Shown here in pieces: positions 345-20,853 of a stretch of 20,903 nucleotides of DNA. Under the pieces are notes generated by a model, which worked only from the letters and a program-made list of their open reading frames with translations, searched no databases and had not been told where the DNA came from. Both the position numbers and the translations under genes were made by a program. Where the stretch lies: UHGV virus genome UHGV-0121717; one strand, given 5' to 3'. The DNA is from a virus. Position 1 is the first letter of the stretch. Every line of letters starts with the position of its first letter.

Positions 345-397
345 GATTTTCCTCGTTGTTAAAGTCTTTATTGTCCGCAACTCTATTCTATGGTGAT

Positions 398-3019: not shown

Positions 3020-3376
3020 TCAGAATGGGATGGAATCGTCGTATACAGGAGTGTTCTGCTGGTTACTACTTTGCTGCTGCGGGCCATTTCCTGAAGCTGC
3101 AAATCCAATCTTTGCATTCAGTAATTCAAGAGTGATTGATTGACCATTTTGCCCCTGATAAACATCAACCCTGATGTTTTCTCCGGTAATTTCCACAATG
3201 CCACCTTCAACAAGAACGCTACGGTAGTAATCCGCTTGCGCTCCCGGCTTGACAAATACAACGGCGCTGTAGTTTGTCCATTCTTTCTTTTTTGTCTGGC
3301 GATCGTAATACTGAACGCCAGCACGGATGTTGAATCCGATATCTCCGCTCTGGTTATCTGCATCATCGTCTGCCTG
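3020..3376 (-). pseudogene. ssb-like single-stranded DNA-binding protein, 3' portion only (5'-truncated)
   Basis: Stop-to-stop frame gives ...GNGPQQQSSNQQNTPVYDDSIPF*, the Gln/Gly-rich linker and acidic IPF tail characteristic of bacterial-type SSB. No ATG in the frame; it is cut near 3340-3376 where Rz homology begins on the other strand. Confidence 0.45.
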
Positions 3377-3757
3377 TCATGGGCGGTTAATCATTACCGT
3401 GATAACGCCATTACCTATAAAGAACAGCGCGATAAGGCCGCATTCATTATCGCTGACATGCAGAAACGTCAACGCAATGTAGCAGAACTCGACGCCAGAT
3501 ATACAAAGGAGCTTGCTGATGCTAACGCGACTATCGAAAGTCTCCGTGCTGATGTTTCTGCTGGGCGTAAGCGCCTGCAAGTCGCCGCCACCTGTGCAAA
3601 GTCAACGACCGGAGCCAGCGGCATGGGCGATGGAGAAAGCCCAGGACTTACAGCAGATGCTGAACTCAATTATTACCGTCTCCGAAGTGGAATCGACAAG
3701 ATAACCGCGCAGGTCAACTACCTGCAGGAGTACATCAGGACGCAGTGCTTAAAATAA
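3140..3757 (+). CDS. Rz: Rz i-spanin homologue; true Rz homology covers 3341-3757, with the native start and first ~7 codons missing
   Basis: [32 protein letters not shown] matches lambda Rz residues 8-39 almost exactly, and the rest aligns to lambda Rz. The only ATG-initiated ORF (3140) begins 67 codons upstream in sequence antisense to the ssb-like fragment. Confidence 0.75.
3513..3704 (+). CDS. Rz1: Rz1 o-spanin lipoprotein, embedded in the +1 frame of Rz
   Basis: 63-aa ORF wholly inside Rz in another frame; signal peptide ending in the lipobox VSAC followed by a proline-rich stretch ([14 protein letters not shown]), as in lambda Rz1. Confidence 0.7.
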
Positions 3758-4173: not shown

Positions 4174-4794
4174 ATGAAAGATCAAGATGTTAGGTTCGCG
4201 GTGCATCATACGCTTTTGAAAGAATCGCATTTAGATCCAGACTGCCTTGTGGTCGATGAATTTTCCATATCCCTTGGCGCCAGTAGAGCAGACATTGCTG
4301 TAATAAATGGTGTTATACACGGGTACGAACTCAAAAGTGAATATGACTCTTTGGAGCGTTTGCCTCTTCAAATCAAGCATTATTCTTCTGTAATGGACAA
4401 GGTTACTCTTGTCGTAGCTGAGAAACATCTTGAGGGAGCATTAAAGTTAATCCCAGGTTGGTGGGGCGTTAAAACGGTTTCTGTTGGGCCAAAAGGCGCC
4501 ATTCTTATAAAGCACATGCGTGGAGAAAAGCTTAATCGAAACCATGACACATTGATGCTCGCTCAATTGCTTTGGAAAGATGAATGTATCGACGTACTTG
4601 AACGATGGGGCTATTCCAAAGGAATCAAAAGCAAGCCCCGATTTGAGTTATGGAATATTATTGCGGAAAATATTCCAATAGCGAATCTCAGGCTTGAAGT
4701 CAGAACAGCCTTAAAGAAACGCGTAGGCTGGAAAGTTAAGGCTTGGCAGGCTGAGTCTGCGCCAACCAATAAAGCTGTCTCACGACTAACGTAA
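4174..4794 (+). CDS. PD-(D/E)xK nuclease-like protein, uncharacterised; first gene of the moron cassette
   Basis: 206 aa; AGGAG Shine-Dalgarno 5 nt upstream. Motif E29 ... D40 (RADIAVI) ... E52-L-K54 (GYELKS) has the spacing of a PD-(D/E)xK active site. AT-rich relative to the flanking phage genes. Confidence 0.65.
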   Translation: MKDQDVRFAVHHTLLKESHLDPDCLVVDEFSISLGASRADIAVINGVIHGYELKSEYDSLERLPLQIKHYSSVMDKVTLVVAEKHLEGALKLIPGWWGVKTVSVGPKGAILIKHMRGEKLNRNHDTLMLAQLLWKDECIDVLERWGYSKGIKSKPRFELWNIIAENIPIANLRLEVRTALKKRVGWKVKAWQAESAPTNKAVSRLT

Positions 4795-5803
4795 TATGGT
4801 GCGTATGTGCAACTTTACGCCATTCTTTAGAGCCGCCAGATTTGTTAGCGCCTAATGATCTTTGGTAAATGTAATCATCCCCCCAACTAAATTTGGAACC
4901 AAAGACTTGATACTCTGGCGAACTAACAAGGGTAGTACATAAGTTTTTAGTTTGGCCCCATCCATTTCCTTTAACTGCGGTACCTTTTACAAAGATCCAT
5001 GAGGTATCGTTCGAATATCTCACTGAGACATACTGAGACATGAAGCGTGGGTCTACGCTCGTAATGGTAGAGCTAGCGGTGGGATAATCACTAAAACTTG
5101 GCGTTCTTCCATTGCTAAAATTCTGTACTACGTACATCCAAAGATCGTATTCATGGCGCGGAATATGATGAACTTGATGTTGCGGTATCCCTGCCTGTGA
5201 TGCTGGGTATGCGGTTGAAGATAAAATCAAGTTTCTCCACGGAGCTTGGCCTGATAATGTGTTGACCATGCTTAATGCTTGTTGTTTTAAACTATCAGTT
5301 GCGTTTTGAATATCTCCAAAATCAATGATTACATCAATTAAACTAGGATGAATATTTAAGTGGTTAACCAGACTTGTGAATTGGTGCCATGTCTGGGGGG
5401 TGATAGATATAGCGAGCCCATTGATTAAGTTGCGTTGAACAGCATGTATATAGTTTGTTGAATATGCGGGAGAAACAACAGGGATAATTTCCTTACCATT
5501 TACTCTAGCATCTTGGATACACATATCTAGAGGATGATGGCGGCTCGAACCATGTTTATCTAAATATTTAACATCCAGCAAAACAGGACGATTGGTTTTC
5601 CAGGATGCCGCAAGGTTAATACCGAAGTCAGATAAGTAAGAACTCAAACTCTTCTTGTAGCATTCGTTTTCATAATCCCAGTCTATGTCTGGAATGGTAA
5701 TGATCGGAGTAAAACCAGAGAGCGTAGTTTGATCTAAAAGCATCAGAGATTCATATTCAGCAGGCTTCCATTTCAGCTGTGGATAATATTGATGTTGACT
5801 CAT
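4736..5803 (-). CDS. Uncharacterised 355-aa protein, convergent partner of the PD-(D/E)xK-like gene
   Basis: AAGGAG Shine-Dalgarno 4 nt upstream of the ATG at 5803; 3' end overlaps the partner by 59 nt. Contains His clusters (HQVHHIPRH, HTHH) but no P-loop or other motif I can assign. AT-rich. Confidence 0.65.
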   Translation of the reverse strand: MSQHQYYPQLKWKPAEYESLMLLDQTTLSGFTPIITIPDIDWDYENECYKKSLSSYLSDFGINLAASWKTNRPVLLDVKYLDKHGSSRHHPLDMCIQDARVNGKEIIPVVSPAYSTNYIHAVQRNLINGLAISITPQTWHQFTSLVNHLNIHPSLIDVIIDFGDIQNATDSLKQQALSMVNTLSGQAPWRNLILSSTAYPASQAGIPQHQVHHIPRHEYDLWMYVVQNFSNGRTPSFSDYPTASSTITSVDPRFMSQYVSVRYSNDTSWIFVKGTAVKGNGWGQTKNLCTTLVSSPEYQVFGSKFSWGDDYIYQRSLGANKSGGSKEWRKVAHTHHITLVVRQLYWLAQTQPAKP

Positions 5804-6011: not shown

Positions 6012-6190
6012 ATCCAGACCGTTACGGGGCGGCGACCTCGCGGTTTTTCACTATTTATGAAAATTTTTCAGGGAAAATCATGTCGGTACTTATCGAATAT
6101 AACTTTTTGTTTTTTTTAATATTGCATCCGTAAAGGTCCGACATGAAAGTGTCCGAAAATGCCTTTTTCTGGCGTTTTCATGTCGGGCCT
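6012..6190 (+). other. cos DNA-packaging site (cosQ-side sequence, cosN, cosB with three R-like repeats)
   Basis: GGTGATCCAGACCGTTACG then GGGCGGCGACCTCGCGGTTTTTCACTATTTATGAAAATTTT (6027-6067) is near-identical to the lambda right-end/left-end junction as I recall it. Downstream copies of TCATGTCGG at 6078-6086 (+), 6138-6146 (inverted) and 6178-6186 (+), with an AT-rich spacer, mirror the lambda R3-I1-R2-R1 layout. Confidence 0.8.
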
Positions 6191-6214: not shown

Positions 6215-6763
6215 ATGAAGGTTAATAAAAAGAGGCTTGCCGAAATTTTCAACGTGGACCCGCGGACGATTGAACGCTGGCAGTCTCAGGGACTCCCTTG
6301 CGCCTCCAAAGGTAGTAAGGGCATTGAATCTGTATTTGATACTGCCATGGCAATTCAGTGGTATGCGCAGAGGGAAACTGATATCGAAAACGAAAAGCTC
6401 CGCAAAGAACTGGACGATTTGCGTGCTGCAGCGGAGTCAGATTTACAACCCGGCACCATTGACTATGAACGCTACCGGCTCACAAAAGCGCAGGCAGATG
6501 CGCAGGAACTGAAAAATGCCCGTGAAGACGGAGTAGTGCTGGAAACTGAACTGTTTACCTTCATTCTGCAACGTGTGGCACAGGAGATTTCGGGGATACT
6601 TGTGCGTGTGCCGTTGACATTACAGCGTAAATATCCGGACATTTCACCATCACACCTTGATGTGGTGAAAACTGAAATCGCGAAAGCCTCCAATGTTTCA
6701 GCTAAGGCCGGTGAAAACGTGGGCGGGTGGATCGATGATTTCAGACGCGCAGAAGGCAGCTAA
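6215..6763 (+). CDS. nu1: Terminase small subunit
   Basis: 182 aa; [12 protein letters not shown]...[10 protein letters not shown]...[27 protein letters not shown] aligns closely with lambda Nu1. Immediately downstream of cosB. Confidence 0.9.
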
Positions 6764-8663
6764 TGCAGCCGGTGCGATAGCAACAGGGCTTTTATCTCTC
6801 ATTATTCCTGTTCCACTGACGACAGTTCAGTGGGCCAATAAACATTATTACCTTCCTAAAGAGTCGTCTTATACCCCGGGGCGGTGGGAAACACTGCCGT
6901 TTCAGGTTGGCATCATGAACTGTATGGGCAACGATTTGATTCGCACTGTTAACCTGATTAAATCTGCCCGTGTTGGTTATACAAAGATGTTGCTGGGAGT
7001 GGAGGCTTATTTTATTGAGCATAAATCACGCAACAGCCTTCTTTTTCAGCCCACGGACTCAGCTGCTGAAGATTTTATGAAATCTCATGTTGAGCCAACG
7101 ATAAGGGAGGTTCCTGCGTTGCTGGAGCTGGCTCCATGGTTCGGAAGAAAACACCGCGATAATACGCTCACCCTGAAGCGTTTTTCCTCCGGTGTGGGTT
7201 TCTGGTGTCTGGGGGGAGCGGCAGCAAAAAACTACCGTGAAAAATCCGTGGATGTGGTCTGTTATGACGAGCTTTCCTCGTTCGAACCGGATGTTGAAAA
7301 AGAGGGTTCGCCAACCCTGCTGGGGGATAAACGTATTGAGGGCTCTGTATGGCCCAAATCCATTCGCGGCTCGACTCCTAAAATCAAAGGCTCCTGCCAG
7401 ATCGAAAAAGCCGCTAACGAGTCGGCACACTTCATGCGTTTTTATGTGCCCTGTCCGCACTGTGGGGAGGAGCAGTATCTGAAATTTGGCGATGAATCCA
7501 CGCCTTTTGGCCTAAAATGGGAGAAGGACAGCCCCGAAAGCGTTTTCTACCTCTGTGAACATCATGGCTGCGTGTTCCATCAGTCTGAGCTTGACCAGAG
7601 CAACGGGCGGTGGATCTGTGAAAACACGGGGATGTGGACCCGTGACGGTCTGACGTTTTTCAGCGCCGCGGATAATGAAATTCCGCCGCCGCGCTCCATC
7701 ACGTTCCATATCTGGACGGCGTACAGTCCGTTCACCACCTGGGTACAGATAGTCTATGACTGGCTGGATGCACTGAAAGATCCCAACGGCCTGAAAACCT
7801 TTGTGAACACCACGCTGGGCGAGACCTGGGAAGAGGCCGTGGGCGAAAAACTCGATCACCAGGTACTGATGGATAAGGTCGTGCATTACACGGCGGCGGT
7901 GCCAGCCCGGGTGGTTTATCTGACGGCGGGCATTGACTCGCAGCGAAACCGTTTTGAGATGTATGTCTGGGGATGGGCACCGGGAGAGGAAGCTTTTCTG
8001 GTGGATAAAATCATCATTATGGGCCGTCCCGATGAGGAAGAGACGCTGTTACGTGTGGATGCGGCGATCAACAAAAAATACTGCCATGCAGACGGAACCG
8101 AAATGACCATTTCCCGTGTCTGCTGGGACACCGGGGGGATCGATGGTGAAATTGTCTATCAGAGGTCAAAAAAACACGGTGTTTTCCGGGTGCTGCCGGT
8201 AAAAGGCGCATCTGTCTATGGCAAGCCGGTGATCACCATGCCGAAAACCCGCAATCAGCGGGGCGTGTATCTGTGTGAAGTGGGGACGGACACCGCAAAA
8301 GAAATTCTCTATGCCCGTATGAAAGCCGATCCCACTCCTGCGGATGAAGCCACGTCGTATGCCATCCGTTTTCCTGATGATCCGGAGATTTTTTCGCAGA
8401 CAGAGGCGCAGCAACTGGTCGCGGAAGAGCTTGTGGAGAAGTGGGAAAAAGGAAAGATGCGTCTGCTGTGGGATAACAAAAAGCGGCGTAACGAAGCGCT
8501 GGACTGCCTGGTGTATGCCTACGCGGCATTACGTGTGTCCGTGCAACGCTGGCAGCTTGATCTGGCTGTACTGGCAAAATCCCGGGAAGAAGAGACGACC
8601 CGGCCAACCCTTAAAGAACTGGCAGCGAAGCTGTCCGGAGGAGTGAATGGTTACAGTCGCTGA
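6735..8663 (+). CDS. A: Terminase large subunit
   Basis: Start taken at MISDAQKA (6735), overlapping the nu1 3' end as in lambda. Long near-colinear identity to lambda gpA ([49 protein letters not shown]). Confidence 0.9.
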
Positions 8664-8853
8664 ACTGCAGGCGCTGCGTCAGGCGCGCCTTGATTTATTA
8701 ACCGGTAAACGGGTGGTGTCTGTCCAGAAAGATGGTCGCAGAATTGAATATACGGCGGCTTCTCTGGATGAGCTTAACCGGGCGATCAATGATGCGGAGT
8801 CGGTACTGGGGACAACCCGGCGTCGCCGTCGTCCGCTGGGAGTGAGGTTATGA
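8647..8853 (+). CDS. W: Head-tail joining / head completion protein W
   Basis: 68 aa; LTGKRVVSVQKDGRRIEYTAASLDEL matches lambda gpW ([26 protein letters not shown]). Overlaps the A stop. Confidence 0.85.
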   Translation: MVTVAELQALRQARLDLLTGKRVVSVQKDGRRIEYTAASLDELNRAINDAESVLGTTRRRRRPLGVRL

Positions 8854-10442
8854 AACGAACGCCTGTCCTGATTGATGTGAACGGCGTTCCGCTTCGTGAG
8901 AGTCTCAGCTACAACGGGGGCGGTGCAGGATTTGGCGGGCAAATGGCGGAGTGGTTGCCACCGGCGCAGAGTGCCGATGCGGCCCTGCTACCCGCGTTGC
9001 GTCTGGGGAATGCCCGGGCAGATGATCTGGTGCGCAATAACGGAATAGCGGCTAATGCGGTGGCTCTGCATAAGGATCACATTGTCGGGCATATGTTTCT
9101 GATCAGCTACCGTCCGAACTGGCGCTGGCTGGGGATGCGGGAGACCGCAGCAAAAAGCTTTGTCGATGAGGTGGAGGCGGCCTGGTCGGAATACGCCGAA
9201 GGGATGTTTGGCGAGATCGACGTGGAAGGAAAACGCACGTTCACGGAATTTATCCGTGAAGGTGTGGGCGTTCATGCGTTTAACGGCGAAATCTTTGTGC
9301 AGCCGGTCTGGGATACGGAAACCACGCAGTTATTCCGTACGCGTTTTAAAGCCGTGAGTCCGAAACGGGTGGACACGCCTGGACACGGTATGGGGAACCG
9401 TTTTCTGCGGGCCGGTGTGGAGGTCGATCGATATGGCCGTGCCGTCGCGTACCATATTTGTGAGGACGATTTTCCGTTCTCTGGTAGTGGACGATGGGAA
9501 CGGATCCCGCGTGAACTTCCCACCGGGCGTCCGGCCATGCTGCATATTTTCGAGCCGGTGGAGGACGGGCAGACCCGTGGGGCTAATCAGTTTTACAGCG
9601 TCATGGAACGGCTGAAGATGCTCGATTCCCTGCAGGCAACACAGCTTCAGTCGGCCATAGTGAAGGCGATGTATGCAGCGACGATTGAAAGTGAACTTGA
9701 TACCGAAAAGGCCTTTGAATATATCGCCGGTGCGCCGCAGGGGCAGAAGGATAATCCGCTTATTAATATTCTGGATAAGTTCTCCACCTGGTATGACACG
9801 AATAGCGTGACGCTGGGCGGTGTCAAAATTCCGCACCTTTTCCCCGGTGATGATCTGAAACTTCAGACCGCGCAGGATTCAGACAATGGATTTTCGGCGC
9901 TTGAACAGGCGCTGCTGCGGTATATCGCCGCCGGTCTTGGCGTTTCCTACGAACAGTTGTCCCGTGATTACTCGAAGGTCAGTTATTCAAGTGCCCGCGC
10001 ATCCGCCAATGAGTCGTGGCGCTATTTTATGGGGCGGCGAAAATTTATTGCGTCCCGGCTGGCCACGCAGATGTTTTCCTGCTGGCTGGAAGAGGCACTT
10101 CTTCGGGGGATTATTCGTCCGCCACGGGCACGTTTTGATTTTTATCAGGCGCGATCAGCCTGGTCACGGGCTGAGTGGATTGGAGCCGGAAGAATGGCCA
10201 TTGACGGGCTCAAGGAGGTTCAGGAATCAGTGATGCGCATTGAGGCCGGACTGAGCACGTATGAGAAAGAGCTGGCGCTGATGGGCGAGGATTATCAGGA
10301 CATTTTCCGCCAGCAGGTCAGGGAATCTGCAGAGCGGGAAAAAGCCGGACTCTCACGTCCGGTGTGGATAGCGCAGGCGTATCAGCAGCAGATAGCGGAG
10401 AGTCGCAGGCCGGAAGAGGAGACAACACCACGTGAGACGTAA
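8850..10442 (+). CDS. B: Portal protein
   Basis: 530 aa with extensive identity to lambda gpB (ARADDLVRNNG, FEPVEDGQTRGANQFYSVMERLKMLD, LLRYIAAGLGVSYEQLSR). ATGA overlap with W. Confidence 0.9.
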   Translation: MKRTPVLIDVNGVPLRESLSYNGGGAGFGGQMAEWLPPAQSADAALLPALRLGNARADDLVRNNGIAANAVALHKDHIVGHMFLISYRPNWRWLGMRETAAKSFVDEVEAAWSEYAEGMFGEIDVEGKRTFTEFIREGVGVHAFNGEIFVQPVWDTETTQLFRTRFKAVSPKRVDTPGHGMGNRFLRAGVEVDRYGRAVAYHICEDDFPFSGSGRWERIPRELPTGRPAMLHIFEPVEDGQTRGANQFYSVMERLKMLDSLQATQLQSAIVKAMYAATIESELDTEKAFEYIAGAPQGQKDNPLINILDKFSTWYDTNSVTLGGVKIPHLFPGDDLKLQTAQDSDNGFSALEQALLRYIAAGLGVSYEQLSRDYSKVSYSSARASANESWRYFMGRRKFIASRLATQMFSCWLEEALLRGIIRPPRARFDFYQARSAWSRAEWIGAGRMAIDGLKEVQESVMRIEAGLSTYEKELALMGEDYQDIFRQQVRESAEREKAGLSRPVWIAQAYQQQIAESRRPEEETTPRET

Positions 10443-11937
10443 TCTTTCACACATTATTGCCGCAGCATTCAATGAACCGCTGCTTCTGGAGCCCGCCTAT
10501 GCGCGGGTTTTCTTTTGCGCGCTCGGGCGCGAGATGGGGGCAGCAAGTCTTTCGGTACCACAACAGCAGGTACAGCTTGATGCTCCCGGAATGCTGGCTG
10601 AAACGGACGAGTACATGGCCGGAGGTAAACGACCGGCCCGTGTTTACCGGGTGGTGAACGGTATTGCGGTACTGCCGGTGAGCGGCACGCTGGTGCACCG
10701 GCTGGGGGGGATGCGGCCATTTTCCGGAATGACTGGCTATGACGGCATTGTCGCCTGTCTTCAGCAGGCAATGGCAGATAGCCAGGTGCGGGGCATACTG
10801 CTGGACATTGACAGTCCGGGCGGGCAGGCCGCCGGCGCGTTTGACTGCGCTGACATGATTTACCGCCTCCGTCAGCAGAAGCCGGTCTGGGCACTGTGCA
10901 ATGACACGGCCTGTTCTGCAGCCATGCTGCTGGCGTCGGCCTGCTCCCGACGGCTGGTTACCCAGACATCCCGTATCGGCTCCATTGGCGTGATGATGAG
11001 CCATGTCAGCTATGCCGGTCATCTGGCGCAGGCCGGTGTGGATATCACGCTGATTTATGCCGGGGCGCACAAGGTGGATGGCAATCAGTTTGAAGCGTTG
11101 CCGGCAGAGGTTCGCCAGGATATGCAGCAGCGGATTGATGCGGCGCACCGGATGTTTGCCGAAAAAGTGGCGATGTATACCGGGTTGTCTGTGGATGCGG
11201 TCACGGGAACAGAGGCCGCCGTTTTTGAAGGTCAGTCCGGCATTGAGGCCGGGCTGGCGGATGAATTAATCAATGCGTCGGATGCCATCAGTGTGATGGC
11301 CACGGCGCTGAACAGTAATGTCAGAGGAGGCACTATGCCGCAATTAACTGCAACGGAAGCCGCCGTGCAGGAGAACCAGCGAGTGATGGGGATCCTGACA
11401 TGCCAGGAAGCGAAAGGACGTGAACAGCTTGCCACGATGCTGGCAGGGCAACAGGGCATGAGCGTTGAACAGGCCCGGGCGATTCTGGCCGCGGCGGCAC
11501 CGCAGCAGCCGGTGGCATCCGCGCAGAGTGAAGCCGATCGCATTATGGCGTGTGAAGAAGCGAACGGTCGTGAACAACTGGCGGCAACGCTGGCGGCGAT
11601 GCCGGAGATGACGGTGGAAAAAGCCCGCCCGATCCTGGCGGCTGCACCACTGGCGGATGCCGGGCCCTCACTTCGTGATCAGATCATGGCCCTGGATGAG
11701 GCAAAAGGGGCAGAAGCGCAGGCTGAAAAACTGGCGGCCTGCCCGGGAATGACCGTGGAGAGCGCCCGGGCTGTGCTGGCTGCGGGATCAGGTAAGGCAG
11801 AACCGGTCTCTGCATCCACAACCGCCCTGTTTGAACATTTCATGGCGAACCATTCACCGGCTGCGGTCCAGGGGGGCGTGTCACAGGCGTCAGAAGACGG
11901 TGATGCGGACGTGAAAATGCTCATGGCCATGCCATGA
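10432..11937 (+). CDS. C: Prohead protease / scaffold (S49 ClpP-like domain plus Nu3-like C-terminal scaffold region)
   Basis: GTG start; AFNEPLLLEPAYARVFFCAL and the GIAVLPVSGTL...MTGYDGI...KPVWAL core match lambda gpC. The C-terminal region carries three tandem copies of a module present once in lambda C. Confidence 0.85.
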   Translation: MRRNLSHIIAAAFNEPLLLEPAYARVFFCALGREMGAASLSVPQQQVQLDAPGMLAETDEYMAGGKRPARVYRVVNGIAVLPVSGTLVHRLGGMRPFSGMTGYDGIVACLQQAMADSQVRGILLDIDSPGGQAAGAFDCADMIYRLRQQKPVWALCNDTACSAAMLLASACSRRLVTQTSRIGSIGVMMSHVSYAGHLAQAGVDITLIYAGAHKVDGNQFEALPAEVRQDMQQRIDAAHRMFAEKVAMYTGLSVDAVTGTEAAVFEGQSGIEAGLADELINASDAISVMATALNSNVRGGTMPQLTATEAAVQENQRVMGILTCQEAKGREQLATMLAGQQGMSVEQARAILAAAAPQQPVASAQSEADRIMACEEANGREQLAATLAAMPEMTVEKARPILAAAPLADAGPSLRDQIMALDEAKGAEAQAEKLAACPGMTVESARAVLAAGSGKAEPVSASTTALFEHFMANHSPAAVQGGVSQASEDGDADVKMLMAMP

Positions 11938-11973: not shown

Positions 11974-12321
11974 ATGGTGACGAAAACCATCACTGAACAG
12001 CGTGCGGAAGTACGTATTTTTGCCGGTAATGATCCGGCTCACACCGCCACAGGCAGCAGCGGGATTTCCTCGGCAACACCGGCACTGACACCCCTGATGC
12101 TGGATGGGGCCACCGGGAAACTGGTGGTCTGGGACGGACAGAAAGCCGGTAGTGCGGTTGGCATACTGGTACTGCCGCTTGAAGGCACAGAGGCGGTGCT
12201 GACCTATTACAAGTCGGGGACCTTTGCGACGGAGGCAATCCGCTGGCCTGAAAGTGTGGATGAACACAAAAAGGCCAACGCCTTTACCGGCAGTGCCCTG
12301 AGTCACGCGGCGCTGCCGTAA
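11974..12321 (+). CDS. D: Head decoration protein D
   Basis: 115 aa; DPAHTATG...TPLMLD...KLVVWDG...AVGILV...YKSGTF aligns with lambda gpD. Confidence 0.85.
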   Translation: MVTKTITEQRAEVRIFAGNDPAHTATGSSGISSATPALTPLMLDGATGKLVVWDGQKAGSAVGILVLPLEGTEAVLTYYKSGTFATEAIRWPESVDEHKKANAFTGSALSHAALP

Positions 12322-12378: not shown

Positions 12379-12552
12379 ATGGGATTGTTTACGACCCGCC
12401 AGTTACTCGGTTATACCGAACAAAAAGTTAAATTCCGTGCGCTGTTTCTGGAGCTGTTTTTCCGCCGTACGGTGAATTTCCACACCGAAGAGGTGATGCT
12501 GGACAAAATTACCGGAAAAACGCCGGTACCAGATACGTATTGCCGGTTATGA
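12379..12552 (+). pseudogene. E: Major capsid protein E, N-terminal 57-codon fragment (truncated)
   Basis: MGLFTTRQLLGYTEQKVKFRALFLELFFRRTVNFHTEEVMLDKI matches lambda gpE residues 1-45; homology then stops and the frame ends at TGA 12550-12552. AAAGGA ribosome-binding site retained. Confidence 0.75.
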
Positions 12553-13030
12553 CACGGCACCGGAGGCGGTGTACGCCCGTCTTCACGAACAGCTGGGTGA
12601 GGGAACGGTCATCCATATTGTGCCGCGACTGGCCGGGGCCGGAAAGGGTGGACTGCAGATTGTGCTGGGGGCGGCAGCCATCGTGGGCTCTTTCTTCACT
12701 GCCGGGGCATCAATGGCGTTATGGGGTTCAGCCCTGGCAGCCGGTGGTTTTTCTGCCACCACGATGCTGTTTTCACTTGGAGCCAGCATGATTCTGGGCG
12801 GTGTGGCCCAGATGCTGGCCCCGAAGGCAAAAACACCGGATTACCGCGCAACGGATAACGGCAGACAGAACACGTACTTTTCCTCGCTGGATAACATGAT
12901 TGCCCAGGGGAACCCGATGCCGGTGCCTTACGGGGAAATGCTGGTTGGCTCCCGCCGTATATCCCAGGACATCAGCACCCGTGATGAAGGCGGGGGCGGA
13001 AAGGTCGTGGTTATCGGGCGACAGGGATAA
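12497..13030 (+). pseudogene. I: Tail assembly protein I, C-terminal fragment fused out of frame to the E fragment
   Basis: A different frame from E reads ...RYQIRIAGYDTAPEAVYARLHEQLGEGTVIHIVPRLAGAGKGG...GGKVVVIGRQG*, aligning with the C-terminal two-thirds of lambda gpI. An in-frame stop lies at 12494-12496; the only candidate start is GTG 12569. Confidence 0.75.
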
Positions 13031-13205
13031 AACATAAAAAAATCCCGCAGTGATCGCGGAGCTGCGGGGACAGACAAATGAAGATCAATGTGAAGGAGTT
13101 GTTTTTGTTACTCGGGCAAAAAAACACTAACGCAGCGAAATTATACGCGCCACAGTCAGTGTGTGAAAATGTGAAGATATTCAGAAATTTTATTCCGTCA
13201 TGACG

Positions 13206-13235
13206 CAGGCACCCGGTGAGGTGCCTGTTGTTTTT
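13206..13235 (+). terminator. Terminator-like hairpin in an extra segment between the I fragment and J
   Basis: CAGGCACC-CGGTGA-GGTGCCTG followed by TTGTTTTT: 8-bp perfect stem, 6-nt loop, T-tract. Confidence 0.4.
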
Positions 13236-13270
13236 GTGAGTGAACAATTATCACGGTAAGAGGTGATGTA

Positions 13271-16200
13271 ATGGGCAAAGGTGGCGGCAAGGCGCACACA
13301 CCGCGTGAGGCGAAAGACAATCTCAAATCCACGCAGATGATGAGCGTGATTGATGCGATTGGTGAGGGACCGATAGAAGGCCCGGTGAAAGGCCTGCAGA
13401 GTATTCTGGTGAACAAAACCCCGCTGACGGACACGGACGGTAATCCCGTGATACACGGTGTGACCGCGGTCTGGCGTGCCGGGGAGCAGGAGCAGACACC
13501 ACCGGAAGGCTTTGAGTCCTCCGGCTCTGAAACTGTACTGGGTGTCGAAGTGACCAGGGAAAAACCGGTAACACGCACCATTACGTCAGCGAACATTGAC
13601 CGCCTGCGGGTGACCTTCGGGGTGCAGTCACTGGTGGAGACCACGTCAAAGGGTGACCGTAATCCGTCCTCTGTCCGTCTGCTGATTCAGTTACAGCGTA
13701 ACGGTAACTGGGTGACAGAAAAGGATGTCACCATTAACGGCAAGACCACCTCACAGTTCCTGGCCTCGGTGATTCTGGATAATCTGCCTCCCCGCCCCTT
13801 TAACATCCGGATGGTCAGGGAGACGGCGGACAGCACCACGGACCAGCTGCAGAACAGAACGCTGTGGTCGTCATACACCGAAATCATCGATGTGAAACAG
13901 TGCTACCCGAACACGGCCATTGTGGGGATGCAGGTGGATGCGGAGCAGTTTGGTGGTCAGCAGATGACGGTGAACTACCATATCCGCGGTCGCATCATCC
14001 AGGTGCCGTCAAACTATGACCCGGAAAAACGCACGTACAGTGGTATCTGGGACGGCAGTCTGAAACCGGCATACAGCAACAATCCGGCCTGGTGTCTGTG
14101 GGACATGCTGACTCACCCGCGCTACGGCATGGGAAAACGTCTGGGGGCGGCGGATGTGGACAAGTGGGCGCTGTATGCCATCGGGCAGTACTGCGACCAG
14201 ATGGTGCCGGATGGCTTCGGGGGCACCGAGCCGCGGATGACCTTCAATGCGTACCTGGCACAACAGCGTAAGGCGTGGGATGTTCTCAGTGATTTCTGCT
14301 CGGCGATGCGCTGTATGCCGGTATGGAACGGCCAGATTCTGACGTTTGTTCAGGACCGCCTGTCGGATGTGGTGTGGCCGTACACCAACAGCGATGTGGT
14401 GGTGGATGATAACGGCGTGGGGTTCCGCTACAGCTTCAGTGCCCTGAAGGACCGGCACACGGCGGTGGAGGTGAATTACACCGACCCGCAGAACGGCTGG
14501 CAGACCTCCACGGAACTGGTGGAAGACCCGGAAGCCATACTGCGCTACGGGCGCAATCTGCTGAAGATGGACGCGTTCGGCTGTACCAGCCGCGGTCAGG
14601 CCCACCGTGCCGGGCTGTGGGTGATAAAGACCGGACTGCTGGAAACGCAGACGGTGGATTTCACGCTCGGGTCACAGGGGCTGCGGCACACGCCCGGTGA
14701 CATCATTGAAATCTGTGATAACGACTATGCCGGGACCCTGACCGGCGGACGTATCCTGTCCATTGATGCCGCCAGCCGCACCCTGACACTGGACCGTGAG
14801 GTTACCCTGCCGCAGACCGGTACCGCCACGGTGAACCTGATTAACGGCAGCGGTAAGCCGGTGAGTGTGGACATCACGGCACAACCGGCCCCTGCCCGGA
14901 TACAGGTCAGTGCCCTGCCTGATGGCGTGGCGACATACGGTGTGTGGGGACTCTCCCTGCCGTCACTGCGCCGTCGCCTGTTCCGCTGTGTCGCCATCCG
15001 GGAAAACACGGACGGCACCTTTGCCATCACGGCGGTGCAGCACGTACCGGAAAAAGAAGCCATCGTGGATAACGGGGCCAGCTTTGAGCCGCAGTCAGGC
15101 ACCCTGAACAGCGTTATCCCTCCGGCAGTGCAGCACCTCACGGTGGAGGTGAGTGCCTCAGACGGCCAGTATCTGGCGCAGGCGAAATGGGACACGCCGC
15201 GGGTGGTGAAAGGTGTGAGCTTCAGTCTGCGTCTGACCAGCGGAAGGGGGGATGACAGCCGCCTGGTGACCACCGCCATCACCGCAGACACGGCGCACCG
15301 TTTCAGTGGTCTGCCGCCCGGGGAATACACCCTGACGGTCAGGGCGATTAACAGCTATGGCCAGCAGGGCGAACCTGCCACCACCACGTTCCGGATTGAC
15401 GCCCCGGCAGCGCCTGCCACCATTGAACTGATACCGGGGTATTTTCAGATAACGGCGGTCCCGAAACTGGCTGTATATGACCCGACGGTACAGTTTGAAT
15501 TCTGGTTTTCGGAACAGCAGATTGCGGATATCAGGCAGGTTGAAACCTCCGCCCGCTATCTTGGCACGGCGCTGTACTGGATAGCTGCCAGTATCAATAT
15601 CAAACCGGGCCATGATTATTACTTTTATATCCGCAGTGTGAACACCGTTGGCAAATCGGCATTTGTGGAGGCCGTCGGCCGGGCCAGCGATGATGCCGAA
15701 GGCTACCTGAATTTTTACAAAGGGCTGATTAATAAAACACATCTCGGTAAAGAGCTGCTGGAAAACGCTGAACTGACGGAAGATAACGCCAGCAGACTGG
15801 AGGCGTTTTCGAAAGAGTGGAAAGACGCTAACGATAAATGGAATGCCATGTGGGGCGTCAGAATTGAGCAGACCGAAGACGGTAAGCATTATGTCGCGGG
15901 GCTTGGCCTCAGCATGGAGGACACGGAGGACGGTAAACTGAGCCAGTTTCTGGTTGCCGCTAACCGTATCGCGTTTATTGACCCGGCAAACGGGAATGAA
16001 ACGCCGATGTTTGTGGCGCAGGGCAATCAGATATTCATGAACGACGTGTTCCTGAAATACCTGACGGCTCCCACCATTACCAGCGGCGGTAATCCTCCTG
16101 CATTTTCCCTGACACCGGACGGGCGGCTGACGGCGAAAAATGCTGATATCAGCGGTAACGTGAATGCGAATTCCGGGACGCTCAACAACGTCACGATTAA

Positions 16201-16660
16201 CGAGAACTGTCGGGTTCTGGGAAAACTGTCCGCGAACCAGATTGAAGGCGATCTCGTTAAAACAGTGGGCAAAGCTTTCCCCCGGGACTCCCGTGCACCG
16301 GAGCGGTGGCCATCAGGGACCATTACCGTCATGGTTTATGACGATCAGCCGTTTGACCGGCAGATTGTTATTCCGGCGGTGGCATTCAGTGGCGCTAAGC
16401 ATGAGAGAGAGCATACTGATATTTACTCCTCATGCCGTCTGATAGTGCGGAAAAACGGTGCTGAAATTTATAACCGTACCGCGCTGGATAATACGCTGAT
16501 TTACAGTGGCGTTATTGATATGCCTGCCGGTCACGGTCACATGACACTGGAGTTTTCGGTGTCAGCATGGCTGGTGAATAACTGGTATCCCACAGCAAGT
16601 ATCAGCGATTTGCTGGTTGTGGTGATGAAGAAAGCCACCGCAGGCATCAGTATCAGCTGA
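13271..16660 (+). CDS. J: Host-specificity / central tail fibre protein J
   Basis: 1129 aa, colinear with lambda gpJ with high identity over most of its length ([21 protein letters not shown]...). The last ~130 residues diverge from lambda. Confidence 0.9.
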
Positions 16661-16727: not shown

Positions 16728-17327
16728 ATGCGTAAATTATGTGCTGTTATTATGTCTGCAGTCGTCTGGCTGGCCGCTGCGGGTGCGCCAGCGGGTGCAG
16801 CAGAGAGTCACTCCACTCTGAGTGCCGGGTATCTTCATACCCATTCTGATATGTCCGGCAGTGATGATTTAACCGGATTCAACGTGAAATACCGCTATGA
16901 ATTTACGGACACGCTGGGGCTGGTGACGTCATTCAGCTATGCAGGAGACATGAATCGCCAGCTTACCCGTTACAGTGATAGCCGCTGGCATGAAGATTCC
17001 GTGCGTAACCGCTGGTTCAGCGTGATGGCGGGGCCGTCTGTACGCGTGAATGAATGGTTCAGCGCGTATGCGATGGCGGGTGTGGCTTACAGCCGTGTGT
17101 CGACTTTCTCCGGTGATTATCTTCGCGTAACTGACAACAAGGGGAAAACGCACGACGTGCTGACCGGAAGTGATGACGCTCGCCACAGCAACACGTCTCT
17201 GGCGTGGGGGGCTGGCGTGCAGTTTAACCCGGCCGAATCCGTGGCCGTTGATGTCGCTTATGAAGGCTGCGGAAGTGGCGACTGGCGCACTGACGGGTTC
17301 ATCGTGGGTGTTGGCTATAAATTCTGA
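16728..17327 (+). CDS. lom: Lom outer-membrane beta-barrel protein (Ail/Lom family)
   Basis: 199 aa with signal peptide; near-identical to lambda Lom over most of its length (STLSAGYLH, NVKYRYEFTDTLG, GFIVGVGYKF end). Confidence 0.9.
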   Translation: MRKLCAVIMSAVVWLAAAGAPAGAAESHSTLSAGYLHTHSDMSGSDDLTGFNVKYRYEFTDTLGLVTSFSYAGDMNRQLTRYSDSRWHEDSVRNRWFSVMAGPSVRVNEWFSAYAMAGVAYSRVSTFSGDYLRVTDNKGKTHDVLTGSDDARHSNTSLAWGAGVQFNPAESVAVDVAYEGCGSGDWRTDGFIVGVGYKF

Positions 17328-17353
17328 TTAGCCAGGTAACACAGTGTTATGAC

Positions 17354-17380
17354 AGCCCGCCGGTTCTGGTGGGCTTTTTT
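17354..17380 (+). terminator. Intrinsic terminator after lom
   Basis: AGCCCGCC-GGTTCT-GGTGGGCT followed by TTTTTT (one G-U pair in the stem). Confidence 0.55.
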
Positions 17381-17391
17381 GTGGGGGGAAT

Positions 17392-18540
17392 ATGTCAGTA
17401 CAGATTTCAGGTGTGCTGAAGGATGGTACAGGAAAACCGGTACCGAACTGCACCATAGAGCTGAAAGCCGTGAGAACCAGCGAGACGGTGATAGTCACCA
17501 CGGTGGCAGAGCACCAGCCAGGCGAAACGGGCAGTTACAGCATGCAGGTTGAGCCGGGGCGTTATCGTGTGACCTTGTGCGTGGAAGGTCGTCAGCCGGC
17601 ATGCGCCGGCGAGATTGATGTCATGGCCGACGACGAACCGGGCACCCTGAATGCCTTTCTGCTCCGTGAAACGGATGCAGCGTATTATCCTGATGCACTG
17701 AAGAAGCTGGAAGCGGCGGCGGATGAGGCTGTGCGCAGGGCGCGAGAAGCTGCTGAGAAAGCCGAAACTGCCGTGGGGCCACAGGGACTGAAAGGCGACA
17801 CCGGAGCAACTGGTCCACAGGGACAGAAGGGGGACAAGGGCGATACAGGCCCGGCAGGGCCACCGGGGCCGAAAGGGGATAAAGGTGACAAGGGCGATAA
17901 GGGGGATACAGGTCCGAAAGGTGAGCAGGGCGATCCGGGCGGACCACAGGGACCGAAGGGCGACAAGGGGGATACAGGCCCGGCAGGTCCACAGGGGCCG
18001 AAAGGGGATACGGGAGCTGCAGGCCCGGCAGGGCCTCAGGGGCCAAAAGGGGATACGGGAGCCGCAGGCCCGGCAGGGCCTCAGGGGCCAAAAGGGGATA
18101 CGGGAGCCGCAGGTCCGGCAGGACCTCAGGGGCCAAAGGGAGACACGGGAGCTACAGGTCCGGAAGGTCCGCAGGGACCGAAGGGAGATACGGGAGCTGC
18201 AGGCCCGGCAGGACCACAGGGGCCAAAAGGGGATACGGGAGACACAGGCCCGGCAGGACCACAGGGACCGTCAGGAAGTCCTGACAGCGGACTGTTTGGT
18301 GTCGGTTCTTTTGTCCTTGCGGCATATTATGCGACTAGTTATTCGGGGGATATGGCACCGGGCTCAGCCATTGCCGGCTCATCACTGTCTGCATGTTGCC
18401 TTTCGGATGGAACTCCTCTGATTGCTTCCGCCAGTTTGGGGGAGACCATTTTACCGGGCACGTGGCGTGCATGTGGTCCGGTAATATGGACATATGCTGT
18501 AGGTAAAAGACAGGCAGGATTATTTCAGCGCATATCATGA
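17392..18540 (+). CDS. stf: Side tail fibre protein with a long collagen-like Gly-X-Y domain
   Basis: N-terminus [26 protein letters not shown] matches the lambda Stf N-terminal domain. It is followed by about 56 Gly-X-Y triplets ([15 protein letters not shown]... repeated) and a ~90-aa C-terminal domain. Confidence 0.8.
17776..18282 (+). repeat. Tandem 45-bp (15-aa) collagen-like coding repeats within stf
   Basis: At least five near-identical copies of GGCCCGGCAGGGCCTCAGGGGCCAAAAGGGGATACGGGAGCCGCA and diverged flanking copies. Strict G-X-Y periodicity with one interruption (GDPGGPQ). Confidence 0.85.
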
Positions 18541-18547
18541 GGAGGTC

Positions 18548-19156
18548 ATGGTGGATAAGGGAAAAGAGATTATTGCAGTACGAAATGCAGCCTACAACGA
18601 ATACGGCGGGATAAACTGTGAGGTGCAGTTTGAAGATGCGGTCAATGAAAAAGGAGAGCCGGTATGGCTGCCGTATACCGCAACGGAAACGGATAATACT
18701 GAACACGGAAAAGCCTTATGGTCTGGTCTGACAGCAGGAACATACGGAAGTGTGACCGCCTTTGTTGCCACGGCTGCAGTACTGGAAGCGGCAAAGGCAG
18801 CGAAACGGGAAGAGATTAATATCTGGCGTGATGTGCAGGAGAATATGGAATACGTGATGGAATTCAACGGAAGGAACTGGGATTACGGCAAGAAGACGTT
18901 GTCCAGGATAAGCACGACACGACTGATGGCAGAGAACAACCGTCTTCCGGAAGGTTTTGCCTGGACAGACGGGGATAATAATGTGGTGCCGGTAACGGCG
19001 GCGGAGATAATTGCGCTGGCAGATGCGACAGAGCAGGCGATGTTTGCGAAAGGTGTGGAGATTAATACACGTCAGCTTCAGATGAAAGCCGAGGTTGAGG
19101 CGCTGACAGAGCTGAAGGCGATCCGCAGTTATGTTATCGGATGGCCTGCAGGCTGA
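18548..19156 (+). CDS. Tail fibre assembly / chaperone-like protein (Tfa-like)
   Basis: 202 aa directly downstream of stf, with GAGGAGG overlapping the stf stop. The C-terminal LPEGFAWTDGDNNVVPVTAAEIIALADA... resembles the C-terminal domain of tail-fibre assembly proteins. Confidence 0.5.
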   Translation: MVDKGKEIIAVRNAAYNEYGGINCEVQFEDAVNEKGEPVWLPYTATETDNTEHGKALWSGLTAGTYGSVTAFVATAAVLEAAKAAKREEINIWRDVQENMEYVMEFNGRNWDYGKKTLSRISTTRLMAENNRLPEGFAWTDGDNNVVPVTAAEIIALADATEQAMFAKGVEINTRQLQMKAEVEALTELKAIRSYVIGWPAG

Positions 19157-19445
19157 GTAAAAAAAACGGGACCACGGCCAGTCCCGGAACCATGAGTTTT
19201 TTAGGGTATTAGTTTATTATCATAATTAGCGTGCTAAGTATGACTTAGTGTAGATAGTTACGAATGCAACCAGATTCTGCCACAGGAAATTCTGCTGTAA
19301 CTGTGATGCTGCTCGTATTTTTGCGGGCGTCAGTATTTTTCAGATTTTCGGAAGTCAATATATTGCCCGTGCGCGGTTACATGCTTCATTCGCGATGCCA
19401 TTTTTTCCGGATATAGCAAGTTCTCTGCATGTTGACGTTTTTTAG

Positions 19446-19694
19446 TCAGTGAATAAACCAGTCGTCCGCTGTTTCCCAGACATCCTGAAGCGTTTCTTGT
19501 ACAAACTCTTGCGCGGATTCTTTATCCACGGCTCTTAAAATAGTGAGTCCATCATTGCTGGCAGATTTAACGATAACATCTACATCGTCATAACGTTTAC
19601 TGATGCGTCGGGTTAATTCTTCCTTTAACGCATCCACAGCACCGGTTGGCATTTTAGTCATTTTTTCTTTGGCTATGCAGATTTCAATACGCAT
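19446..19694 (-). CDS. dinI: DinI-family DNA-damage-inducible protein
   Basis: 82 aa; [11 protein letters not shown]...[14 protein letters not shown] aligns with E. coli DinI (MRIEVTIAK...ETWESADDWF). GAGGG ribosome-binding site; LexA box immediately upstream. Confidence 0.8.
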
Positions 19695-19755: not shown

Positions 19756-20853
19756 TCAAGAGGTCTTATTTCTGCTCCTTTGGAGCTCTTCAAAACGATT
19801 ATGTAAAGATTTCGGATACAGTTCGGTATATACCTGCCATAGCACGTTTAATGAACGATGCCCTGTAACCTGGGCGACTTCCTCAATACTAAAACCAGCC
19901 TCAAATAAGCGACTTGCCCCTTCTCTACGCAAATCATGGTATCGCAGATCTTTAATACCTAATTTGCTTCTTACCCTCTGGAATCCCGCAGTAACAGAAG
20001 TGCTGTTATATGGAAAAATGAATTCTGATTTTTTGGGTTGTCGTTGGACGATATCCCAGGCTTCCCCAAGCAAGGCTACTTTCATATGGTTGCCTTCCTT
20101 TTTACGTGGATCTTTCCTGTCTCTTACGAGTATGGATTTTTGTTCCTGATCGAGATCCTCCCATCGTAATCGGCATACTTCACCGATTCGCATACATGAC
20201 CACACAGAAAATTTGAGGATATCAACGAACGGAATTTTTGAGCATTTATGTGTAGATCGTTGTTGAAGACCTTCAATGAGCATGTCCAGTTCATCAGATG
20301 CCGGTCTACGATTACGACGATTTGATTTACCAATTAAACCAAGTTTAAGTAGATATGGACGAGCGGCTTTTGCTGGGTTTGATGTGTAATTAATTCCATA
20401 TACAGGTTTGGCAGCATCCAGAACACTGCCAAGATAACTAACATCGTGGCTAACTGTAGCTGGACCTGCACCAGCGTTGTTTCTTAGCCTGCAATGTTCA
20501 ATTACGTCATTTTCTGTCAGTTCAGATAGTTTGATCGCGGAGATGTCACTATCCATAAGCAGTTCCAGCACATATCTTTTAGTACGGCCTGCTTTACCTC
20601 CGGCATTTGGGTCATTTAAATATTTGCGTAGTAAGTCACGGACTGTAAGTCCGTCAACTGCATTTGATGATGGAATGCCATATAGATCTAATTCCATCAC
20701 TTTCTGTGTGCCCCATGTTTTGGCATGAGCATGTTTAGGGAATGTTTTGCTTTCCCTGTAAGTGATAACACCTTTTTCTTTGATAATCACATTACAGCGA
20801 TAGCGTGGTGTGCCATCGGATTTTAGTCGTTTCTCTATGTTATAGTACGCCAT
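19756..20853 (-). CDS. int: Tyrosine-type site-specific integrase
   Basis: 365 aa; C-terminal catalytic region ...RIGEVCRLRWEDLD...YHDLRREGASRLFEAGFSIEEVAQVTGHRSLNVLWQVYTEL with the R...HxxR...Y signature. GAGG ribosome-binding site. AT-rich relative to the J/stf module. Confidence 0.85.
   Translation of the reverse strand: MAYYNIEKRLKSDGTPRYRCNVIIKEKGVITYRESKTFPKHAHAKTWGTQKVMELDLYGIPSSNAVDGLTVRDLLRKYLNDPNAGGKAGRTKRYVLELLMDSDISAIKLSELTENDVIEHCRLRNNAGAGPATVSHDVSYLGSVLDAAKPVYGINYTSNPAKAARPYLLKLGLIGKSNRRNRRPASDELDMLIEGLQQRSTHKCSKIPFVDILKFSVWSCMRIGEVCRLRWEDLDQEQKSILVRDRKDPRKKEGNHMKVALLGEAWDIVQRQPKKSEFIFPYNSTSVTAGFQRVRSKLGIKDLRYHDLRREGASRLFEAGFSIEEVAQVTGHRSLNVLWQVYTELYPKSLHNRFEELQRSRNKTS

What the first reader, a model, noticed from the sequence alone, without database searches (positions are those of the whole stretch)
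12480..12575. Second deletion junction: capsid gene E fused out of frame to the C-terminal part of tail gene I
E matches lambda gpE for 45 residues, then loses homology and terminates at codon 58. Within about 30 nt, another frame begins to match lambda gpI from roughly its first third to its exact C-terminus. In lambda this junction would remove the rest of E and all of FI, FII, Z, U, V, G, T, H, M, L, K and the 5' part of I. The element retains terminase, portal, protease and D but cannot build capsids or tails; J and the side tail fibre are nevertheless intact.
Basis: partly seen in the sequence, partly recalled or inferred. Interest (0 to 1): 0.5.

Follow-up and report, generated by a model that had tools for sequence, protein, structure and literature searches.

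The report
Deletion scar in a defective prophage
This is a real 8.7-kb deletion in a lambda-like prophage of gut E. coli that joins the start of the capsid gene to the back part of a tail-tip gene; it is an ordinary example of prophage decay.

Summary
Window 12379-12527 is the first 50 codons of a lambda-type major capsid gene E. From 12525/12528 to the stop at 13030 the DNA is tail assembly gene I, from codon 27 of 193 in the closest intact relative (residue 58 of 223 in lambda gpI). The two parents share only GGT (12525-12527). Measured against an intact E. coli prophage, 8,654 bp are missing: the rest of E, then FI, FII, Z, U, V, G, T, H, M, L, K and the 5' end of I. The join is out of frame, so E' stops at codon 58. 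No remnant of the lost genes lies elsewhere in the window. It is not an assembly artefact. The identical junction occurs in at least seven human-gut metagenome samples assembled with different programs. It is absent from 5,426 complete RefSeq E. coli genomes. The element is a roughly 21-kb remnant of a lambdoid prophage integrated at dusA. It keeps cos, Nu1, A, W, B, C, D, J, lom, stf and tfa as open frames. It also keeps an exact copy of the validated sRNA gene pasB, just after the I remnant. The mechanism is most likely illegitimate, microhomology-mediated deletion. This is ordinary prophage decay and of low interest.

The parts
12379..12552 (+). E' : truncated major capsid gene. Codons 1-50 are E-derived, followed by 7 out-of-frame codons (PDTYCRL) and TGA.
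12525..12527 (.). Deletion junction. GGT is present in both parents (E ...ACGCCGGT|GGCGG, I ...AGGCTGGT|ACCAG), with 5 of 6 matching if extended to GC[C/T]GGT.
12528..13030 (+). 'I : 3' part of tail assembly gene I. It covers codons 27-193 of the intact relative, equal to lambda gpI 58-223, and keeps the native stop. The N-terminal Lambda_tail_I domain is no longer detectable.
12569..13030 (+). Longest ORF in the I frame (GTG start, 153 aa). GGAGG at 12562-12566 lies only 2 nt upstream. Gene callers pick this start even in phages with intact I.
13036..13118 (-). pasB, an Hfq-dependent sRNA validated in EPEC E2348/69, 83/83 identical here. It lies in the 240-bp I-J spacer and its terminator starts 5 nt after the I stop.
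11974..12321 (+). D, head decoration gene, intact (115 aa).
6215..11937 (+). Nu1, A, W, B (portal) and C (S49 protease/scaffold). All have the same lengths as in intact relatives.
6027..6038 (+). cosN cohesive-end sequence GGGCGGCGACCT, identical to lambda's, 177 nt before Nu1.
13271..16660 (+). J, central tail fibre / tip attachment protein, full length (1129 aa).
16728..19156 (+). lom (16728-17327), collagen-repeat side tail fibre stf (17392-18540) and a DUF4376 tail-fibre-assembly-like gene (18548-19156).
19756..20853 (-). Tyrosine integrase at the right end of the element, divergent from chromosomal dusA just beyond the window.
3342..3348 (.). The other deletion or recombination junction. 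Early-left genes (abc2 side) are joined to Rz codon ~10, with loss of immunity, replication, Q, holin and endolysin.

Best explanation
The site is the scar of one spontaneous 8,654-bp deletion inside the late operon of a lambdoid prophage integrated at dusA in a gut E. coli lineage.

**Mechanism (inferred).** Two points 8.65 kb apart that share GGT (imperfect GCYGGT) were joined by illegitimate recombination or replication slippage. One point is in E codon 49/50 and the other in I codon 26/27.

**Consequences shown by the sequence.**
- The major capsid protein is cut to a 57-aa peptide.
- The head-completion genes, the whole tail shaft and most of the tip-assembly set are gone.
- I has lost its start and the front of its N-terminal domain.
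- The element therefore cannot make particles from its own genes and is a defective (cryptic) prophage.

**Why the neighbours look intact.** The surviving head genes, J, lom and stf most likely look intact because the event is recent, not because selection has been shown. Copies of the element from different samples differ by 0-4 SNPs across the head genes.

**Later history (inferred).** In the window's sub-lineage a second event removed the regulatory, replication and lysis modules. The remaining late genes are then cut off from Q and pR', so probably only units with their own promoters, such as pasB and possibly lom, are expressed.
For: **Breakpoint.** It is mapped to the base against the intact relative L002, and the frames were checked.

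**Homology.** Similarity to lambda gpE and gpI is strong.

**What is missing.** No remnants of the deleted genes are found by tblastn or sensitive blastn.

**Recurrence.** The identical junction, and identical 12379-13030, occur in ENA and Logan assemblies from at least 7 samples made with different assemblers. The window is 100% identical to ERZ651857 NODE_44 over 18.5 kb.

**Ancestral state.** An intact counterpart with the same int-dinI-dusA architecture exists in E. coli 442/2. The host flank is 99.9% E. coli dusA-pspG-qorA.

**Related deletions.** Two other, independent deletions in related prophages also have short or no microhomology. A->I has CACCGG (6 nt) and E->K has about 1 nt. This fits random illegitimate events.

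**Recency.** Only 0-4 SNPs separate copies across the head genes.
Against: - Three nucleotides of microhomology are weak evidence for any particular mechanism. 5.7% of random E x K/I junctions show at least 3 nt.
- The small hairpin next to the left breakpoint is not better than shuffled sequence.
- No isolate genome carries the junction, so everything rests on metagenome assemblies.
- Expression and particle formation were not and could not be tested.
- The two flanks could in principle come from two different prophages. Identity to L002 is 98.5% on the left and 96.4% on the right.
Confidence: 0.92

Rival explanations
1. The join is an assembly or chimera artefact. E and I were joined by the assembler through a short repeat, and the real genome has the full late operon.
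For: The window comes from a metagenome assembly. The junction is absent from all complete RefSeq E. coli, the GTDB representative genomes, IMG/VR and the JGI metagenomes.
Against: - The same junction appears in contigs from at least 7 samples of several studies.
- It was built by SPAdes-style, MEGAHIT-style and Logan assemblers.
- The contigs reach 150 kb and differ by a few SNPs and by stf repeat number.
- The shared sequence at the join is only 3 nt, far too short to mislead a k-mer assembler.
Confidence: 0.01
2. The shape of the deletion reflects selection, i.e. domestication. Decay events are tolerated only if they spare the pasB-J-lom-stf block and its upstream context, so right-hand endpoints pile up in K or the 5' end of I. 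The host keeps this block for an sRNA and outer-membrane or host-range functions, or as a recombination reservoir for incoming phages.
For: - Three independent deletions in related prophages end within K codon ~26 to I codon ~37 and all keep pasB and J.
- pasB is an experimentally validated Hfq-dependent sRNA (PMC8550237). It is reported to lie more often outside predicted prophages, and the authors suggest its neighbouring phage genes have degraded over time (bioRxiv 10.64898/2026.05.13.724894).
- Defective prophages are known donors of stf/tfa to infecting phages (PMC3945230).
Against: - There are only three cases. Two of them were found through the I protein itself, which is ascertainment bias.
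- In a spread sample of 60 complete genomes, every best match to a K-I-pasB-J query began at the first base of K. This gives no sign that such truncations are common.
- Copies of the element are too similar for any dN/dS test.
Confidence: 0.1
3. The element is a helper-dependent, satellite-like element. It keeps cos, terminase, portal, protease, D and its own receptor-binding proteins, and borrows E and tail shaft from a co-resident lambdoid phage.
For: - cosN is identical to lambda's.
- Nu1, A, W, B, C, D, J and stf are open frames.
- Defective O157 prophages can be packaged and transferred with help from co-resident prophages (PMC2669165).
Against: - The window's copy has no repressor, replication or Q module.
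- At about 21 kb it is far below the lambda packaging size (own knowledge).
- All genes are ordinary orthologues, 96-98% identical to an intact prophage, with no hijacking genes.
- The junction is absent from IMG/VR viral contigs.
- The out-of-frame join looks accidental.
Confidence: 0.03
4. The join arose by illegitimate recombination between two different lambdoid prophages or sister chromosomes, not by an intramolecular deletion.
For: Left and right flanks differ in identity to the best intact relative, 98.5% against 96.4%. E. coli genomes commonly carry several lambdoid prophages, with a median of 3 places per genome that has any match.
Against: The xis-like gene at the left end, and int next to dusA at the right end, match the architecture of a single intact dusA prophage. 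Mosaicism alone explains the unequal identities.
Confidence: 0.08

Closest known systems
Cryptic lambdoid prophages of E. coli K-12 (DLP12, Rac, Qin, e14)
   Same: They are chromosomal lambdoid remnants that have lost large parts of the morphogenetic and regulatory modules by deletion. They still keep blocks such as R/Rz-cos-Nu1-A (DLP12) or stf/tfa (Rac, Qin) that can recombine with infecting phages (PMC3945230).
   Different: This element sits at dusA and keeps a much larger contiguous head block (Nu1 to D) plus J. Its breakpoint (E codon 50 to I codon 27) is specific to a lineage so far seen only in gut metagenomes.
Defective prophage pool of E. coli O157 Sakai (Sp1-Sp18)
   Same: They are lambda-like prophages with defined deletions, frameshifts and IS insertions in late genes, sitting alongside related prophages (PMC2669165).
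   Different: For the Sakai prophages, excision, packaging and transfer were measured. Nothing functional is known for the present element, and its co-resident prophages are unknown.
dusA-integrated prophages and islands with dusA-associated integrases (Farrugia et al. 2015, PMC4482086)
   Same: The integrase gene lies next to, and divergent from, the 5' end of dusA.
   Different: Membership of this integrase in the published clade was not tested. The finding concerns internal decay of the element, not its integration.
E->K in-frame deletion in E. coli A3176 (NZ_CM163382.1) and A->I deletion in gut-metagenome contigs (L014, L016, L017)
   Same: They are independent deletions in related prophages. 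Each removes the capsid and tail-shaft genes and leaves I (whole or part), pasB, J, lom and stf.
   Different: The breakpoints and microhomologies differ. The A3176 junction is in frame and is annotated as a 306-aa 'C40 family peptidase'.

Membership tests
Lambda-type major capsid protein E (Pfam PF03864 Phage_cap_E) | Full-length match to the capsid domain (329 profile positions) above the gathering score | tested here: not met
   E' matches only profile positions 1-45, at 20.5 bits against a cut-off of 22.9. It is a fragment, 100% identical to residues 1-50 of an intact E.
Lambda tail assembly protein I (Pfam PF06805 Lambda_tail_I; lambda gpI) | N-terminal Lambda_tail_I domain present | tested here: not met
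   The remnant gives no Pfam hit, while the intact relative's I scores 40.4 bits. The first 26 codons are deleted.
Lambda tail assembly protein I (Pfam PF06805 Lambda_tail_I; lambda gpI) | Collinear similarity to the gpI C-terminal part up to the native stop | tested here: met
   65% identity to lambda gpI 58-223, E=1e-74.
Defective (cryptic) lambdoid prophage | Phage genes in lambda order, integrated in a bacterial chromosome | tested here: met
   The order is xis-like ... abc2 | 'Rz, cos, Nu1, A, W, B, C, D, E', 'I, J, lom, stf, tfa, dinI, int, then dusA-pspG-qorA of E. coli.
Defective (cryptic) lambdoid prophage | Loss of genes essential for virion formation | tested here: met
   E (codons 51 onward), FI, FII, Z, U, V, G, T, H, M, L and K are absent from the window.
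Defective (cryptic) lambdoid prophage | No infective particles produced on induction | not testable with these tools
   This needs a carrier strain and an induction experiment.
dusA-associated integrase elements | Tyrosine integrase adjacent to the 5' end of dusA | tested here: met
   In L004 the int gene is at 17378-18475 (-) and dusA at 18564-19601 (+). The layout is the same in the intact prophage of strain 442/2.
dusA-associated integrase elements | Integrase belongs to the published DAI sequence clade | not tested
   Only the generic PF00589 hit was obtained.
PasB sRNA (EPEC E2348/69 PP6) | Sequence and genomic context identical to the Northern-validated locus | tested here: met
   83/83 identical at 13036-13118 (-), in the same I-J spacer. 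The published probe sequence is present.
PasB sRNA (EPEC E2348/69 PP6) | Expressed and Hfq-dependent in this host | not testable with these tools
   A promoter-like site and a terminator are present, but there are no expression data.
Phage satellites (PICI / cf-PICI type) | Own regulation and replication module plus dedicated helper-exploitation genes | tested here: not met
   The window has no repressor, replication or Q genes. The structural genes are ordinary orthologues of an intact prophage at 96-98% DNA identity.

The most novel reading that the evidence does not exclude
Decay of this prophage family is shaped by host selection to keep the pasB-J-lom-stf block. Under this reading, independent deletions end just inside K or the 5' end of I, and the remnant is a domesticated sRNA and surface-protein module rather than neutral debris.
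Probability: 0.1. Interest if true: 0.4.

Novelty: new member of a known kind. Interest (0 to 1): 0.12.

Why it matters
The finding matters little on its own. It documents, to the base, how one lambdoid prophage became defective, and it shows that the event is fixed in a gut E. coli lineage not yet represented among complete genomes.

It has some practical value:
- The 57-aa E' ORF and the 153-aa 'I ORF should be annotated as pseudogene fragments.
- The junction 26-mer is a specific marker for this lineage in metagenomes.
- The retained pasB gives a concrete case for testing whether host-useful sRNAs influence which parts of a prophage survive decay.

Tried and rejected
**Scans for the junction.** Exact-match scans with the junction 26-mer found nothing in one-genome-per-species GTDB contigs, IMG/VR or JGI metagenomes.

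**dN/dS on the retained genes.** The test was planned, but copies differ by only 0-4 SNPs outside the repeat regions, so it is not possible.

**Hairpin-promoted deletion.** The 5-bp stem next to the left breakpoint folds at -4.3 kcal/mol with z = -0.6, no better than shuffled sequence.

**Known RNA families.** Rfam gave nothing at gathering thresholds and only chance-level hits in the I-J spacer. pasB was identified from the literature instead.

**Common hotspot at K/I.** A K-I-pasB-J query against all complete E. coli genomes, sampled evenly down the ranking, showed K present in every best match.

**Programmed frameshift giving an E-I fusion.** This would need a +1 shift within 12527-12552. 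No slippery motif is evident there (by eye, not a formal test), and the intact relatives explain the layout as a deletion.

**Side tail fibre in isolated phages.** Only the collagen repeats match at the DNA level. A similar-length copy was found in the prophage of strain M8.

Full report
**1. The observation**

The sequence at 12379-13030 holds two abutting gene fragments on the + strand.

- **E fragment.** ORF 12379-12552 encodes MGLFTTRQLLGYTEQKVKFRALFLELFFRRTVNFHTEEVMLDKITGKTPVPDTYCRL*. It aligns to lambda gpE residues 1-46 at 54% identity, E=2e-14. Its first 50 residues are identical to the major capsid protein of an intact E. coli prophage (L002 = NZ_CP058874.1).
- **I fragment.** The next frame, from 12527 to the stop at 13028-13030, aligns to lambda gpI residues 58-223, the exact C-terminus, at 65% identity, E=1e-74. 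It matches codons 27-193 of I in L002 at 98%.
- **Pfam.** Pfam sees only profile positions 1-45 of Phage_cap_E in E', below the cut-off. It sees no Lambda_tail_I domain in the I remnant, although the intact relative's I has that domain.

**2. The breakpoint**

The parental and window sequences read as follows:

| Sequence | Bases at the join |
|---|---|
| E parent | ...AAAACGCCGGT\|GGCGGCC |
| I parent | ...GAAGGCTGGT\|ACCAGAT |
| Window | ...AAAACGCCGGTACCAGAT |

- The only shared bases are GGT (window 12525-12527), or 5 of 6 if extended to GC[C/T]GGT.
- The missing stretch in L002 is 8,654 bp (L002 13202-21855). Since 8,654 mod 3 = 2, E' runs out of frame for seven codons to TGA at 12550-12552.
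- The lost genes are E codons 51-342, FI, FII, Z, U, V, G, T, H, M, L, K and I codons 1-26.
- tblastn with all thirteen proteins, and a word-7 blastn with the deleted DNA, find no remnants elsewhere in the window.
- The first start codon in the I frame is GTG 12569 (153 aa). Its GGAGG lies only 2 nt upstream. Gene callers choose this start even where I is intact (L018), so it says nothing about expression.

**3. Artefact or real**

- The exact 57-aa E' product and the 153-aa 'I product are encoded side by side on contigs from ERZ917604/ERR1578711, ERZ651857, ERZ27229587, ERZ28577082, ERZ27262222, ERZ28599396 and ERZ919128/ERR2017805. Contig lengths run from 1 to 150 kb, and the assemblers differ.
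- All carry the identical 36-nt junction core.
- The six copies that span the whole interval (L003, L004, L005, L006, L009, L010) also have identical 12379-13030.
- They are not one sequence copied several times. They differ by 0-4 SNPs, by side-tail-fibre repeat number (367, 382 or 412 aa) and at the left end.
- The window equals ERZ651857 NODE_44 base for base over 18.5 kb.
- The junction is absent from 5,426 complete RefSeq E. coli, GTDB representative genomes, IMG/VR and JGI metagenomes. The exact E' peptide has no NCBI accession.

The junction is therefore real, but so far it is confined to one lineage seen in human-gut metagenomes.

**4. The element**

- **Host and site.** The chromosomal flank (dusA-pspG-qorA) is 99.9% identical to E. 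coli.
- **Gene order in the window:**
  - An xis-like HTH gene, DUF4222, a DksA/TraR-type gene, Dam, Gp157, DUF5405 and abc2, all on the - strand.
  - A junction near 3342-3348 to Rz codon ~10.
  - A sce7726/beta gene pair.
  - cosN GGGCGGCGACCT at 6027-6038.
  - Nu1, A, W, B, C, D, E', 'I, pasB, J, lom, stf and a DUF4376 gene.
  - dinI and int on the - strand, then dusA beyond the window.
- **Ancestral state.** E. coli 442/2 carries a prophage with the same int-dinI-dusA end and a complete E-K set, which shows what the ancestor looked like.
- **Retained genes.**
  - The head genes have the same lengths as in the intact relatives.
  - J is 74% identical to lambda J from residue 1 to 1131.
  - The short collagen-type Stf is normal for its type, at 397 aa in strain M8.
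- **Order of events.** Copy L003 shares the E-I junction but still has lysozyme and a 152-aa Rz. By parsimony the E-I deletion came first and the abc/Rz event later. Re-acquisition of the lysis genes by recombination is the less likely alternative.

**5. Mechanism**

- **Shown:** a single clean junction with 3 nt of shared sequence and an out-of-frame product.
- **Inferred:** illegitimate (microhomology-mediated or slippage) deletion.
- The microhomology is only weakly informative. 5.7% of random E x K/I joins have at least 3 nt. The adjacent 5-bp hairpin is not significant.
- Two other deletions in related prophages behave the same way. A->I in L014, L016 and L017 has CACCGG. E->K in strain A3176 has about 1 nt and is in frame, and it is annotated as a 306-aa C40 peptidase.
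- No site-specific signal is shared among the three.

**6. Consequence**

Without E, FI, FII and every tail-shaft gene, the element cannot form particles from its own genes. This is an inference from lambda genetics (own knowledge). In the window's copy, Q, the late promoter region, the repressor and the replication genes are also gone. The remaining late genes are therefore probably silent. The near-identity of copies means their intact reading frames are explained by recency alone.

**7. Comparison with known systems**

This is the standard picture of prophage decay.

- K-12's DLP12, Rac and Qin keep cos-Nu1-A or stf-tfa blocks and donate them to infecting phages (PMC3945230).
- O157 Sakai carries many lambda-like prophages with defined late-gene defects, some still mobilisable through inter-prophage interactions (PMC2669165).
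- Integration next to dusA matches the dusA-associated integrase elements (PMC4482086).
- A satellite-like reading fails its membership test, because there is no regulatory or replication module and no dedicated hijacking genes.

**8. The one noteworthy by-product**

- The 240-bp I-J spacer is only 60 bp in lambda and in strain 442/2. Here it is identical but for 1 nt to that of EPEC E2348/69 prophage PP6.
- It contains pasB (83/83 identical, window 13118-13036, - strand). PasB is an Hfq-dependent sRNA validated by Northern blot (PMC8550237).
- A recent survey notes that pasB sits inside the structural operon and is more often found outside predicted prophages. Its authors read this as decay of the neighbouring genes.
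- All three deletion variants keep pasB.
- This prompts, but does not establish, a selection-shaped decay hypothesis. A spread sample of complete genomes gave no sign that K/I-proximal truncations are frequent.

**9. Verdict**

The feature is a new instance of a well-known kind and is of low interest.

Noticed in passing
window 13036-13118 (- strand), within the I-J spacer 13031-13270: An exact copy (83/83) of pasB, the Hfq-dependent sRNA validated in EPEC E2348/69 PP6. A sigma-70-like promoter (TTCACA-16-TATAAT, 13167-13140) lies upstream and a terminator (13060-13044) lies 5 nt from the I stop. The predicted -10 element lies 21 nt upstream of the published 5' end, so the primary transcript may be about 15 nt longer or may be processed. 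Rfam has no family for it.
   Followed up: yes
window 13120-13190 compared with L001, L014 and L018: The block upstream of pasB (promoter and about 40 nt beyond) is almost invariant between two pasB alleles whose transcribed bodies differ substantially (alignment A1).
   Followed up: no
window 13205-13238 (+ strand): A strong terminator-like hairpin (GCAGGCACC...GGTGCCTGT followed by a T-run) sits directly in front of the J ribosome-binding site, inside the late operon.
   Followed up: no
window ~3342-3348; ORF 3140-3757: The other junction. P22-type early-left genes (abc2, DUF5405) are joined to Rz at about codon 10, which creates a 205-aa hybrid ORF. The next 150 bp (3348-3502) differ at many positions from the otherwise near-identical copy L003, which suggests recombination with another prophage rather than a simple deletion.
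   Followed up: partly
window 4174-4794 (+) and 4736-5803 (-): A convergent, overlapping gene pair (sce7726 family / 'beta family protein') lies between Rz and cos. It hits the PADLOC models cll, beta and PD-Lambda-2_C, so it is a candidate anti-phage defence moron. It is also present in the intact relatives.
   Followed up: partly
window 17392-18540 (stf), repeats about 17880-18270: The collagen-repeat side tail fibre varies in length between otherwise near-identical copies: 367, 382 and 412 aa, in steps of 15 aa. This indicates repeat slippage.
   Followed up: partly
L001 12480-13400 (NZ_CM163382.1, E. coli A3176): An independent deletion fuses E (about 84 codons) in frame to K. RefSeq annotates the 306-aa chimera as a normal 'C40 family peptidase'.
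   Followed up: partly
L014 ~9990 (also L016, L017): An independent 13-kb deletion joins terminase gene A (product cut to 478 aa) to I, 30 bp to the right of the window's breakpoint, through the 6-nt microhomology CACCGG. It is seen in several gut metagenomes.
   Followed up: partly
window 159-401 (-) and 19756-20853 (-): An xis-like gene lies at the left end and int at the right end next to dusA. This implies attP lies between xis and int in the circular form, unlike lambda's xis-int-attP order.
   Followed up: no
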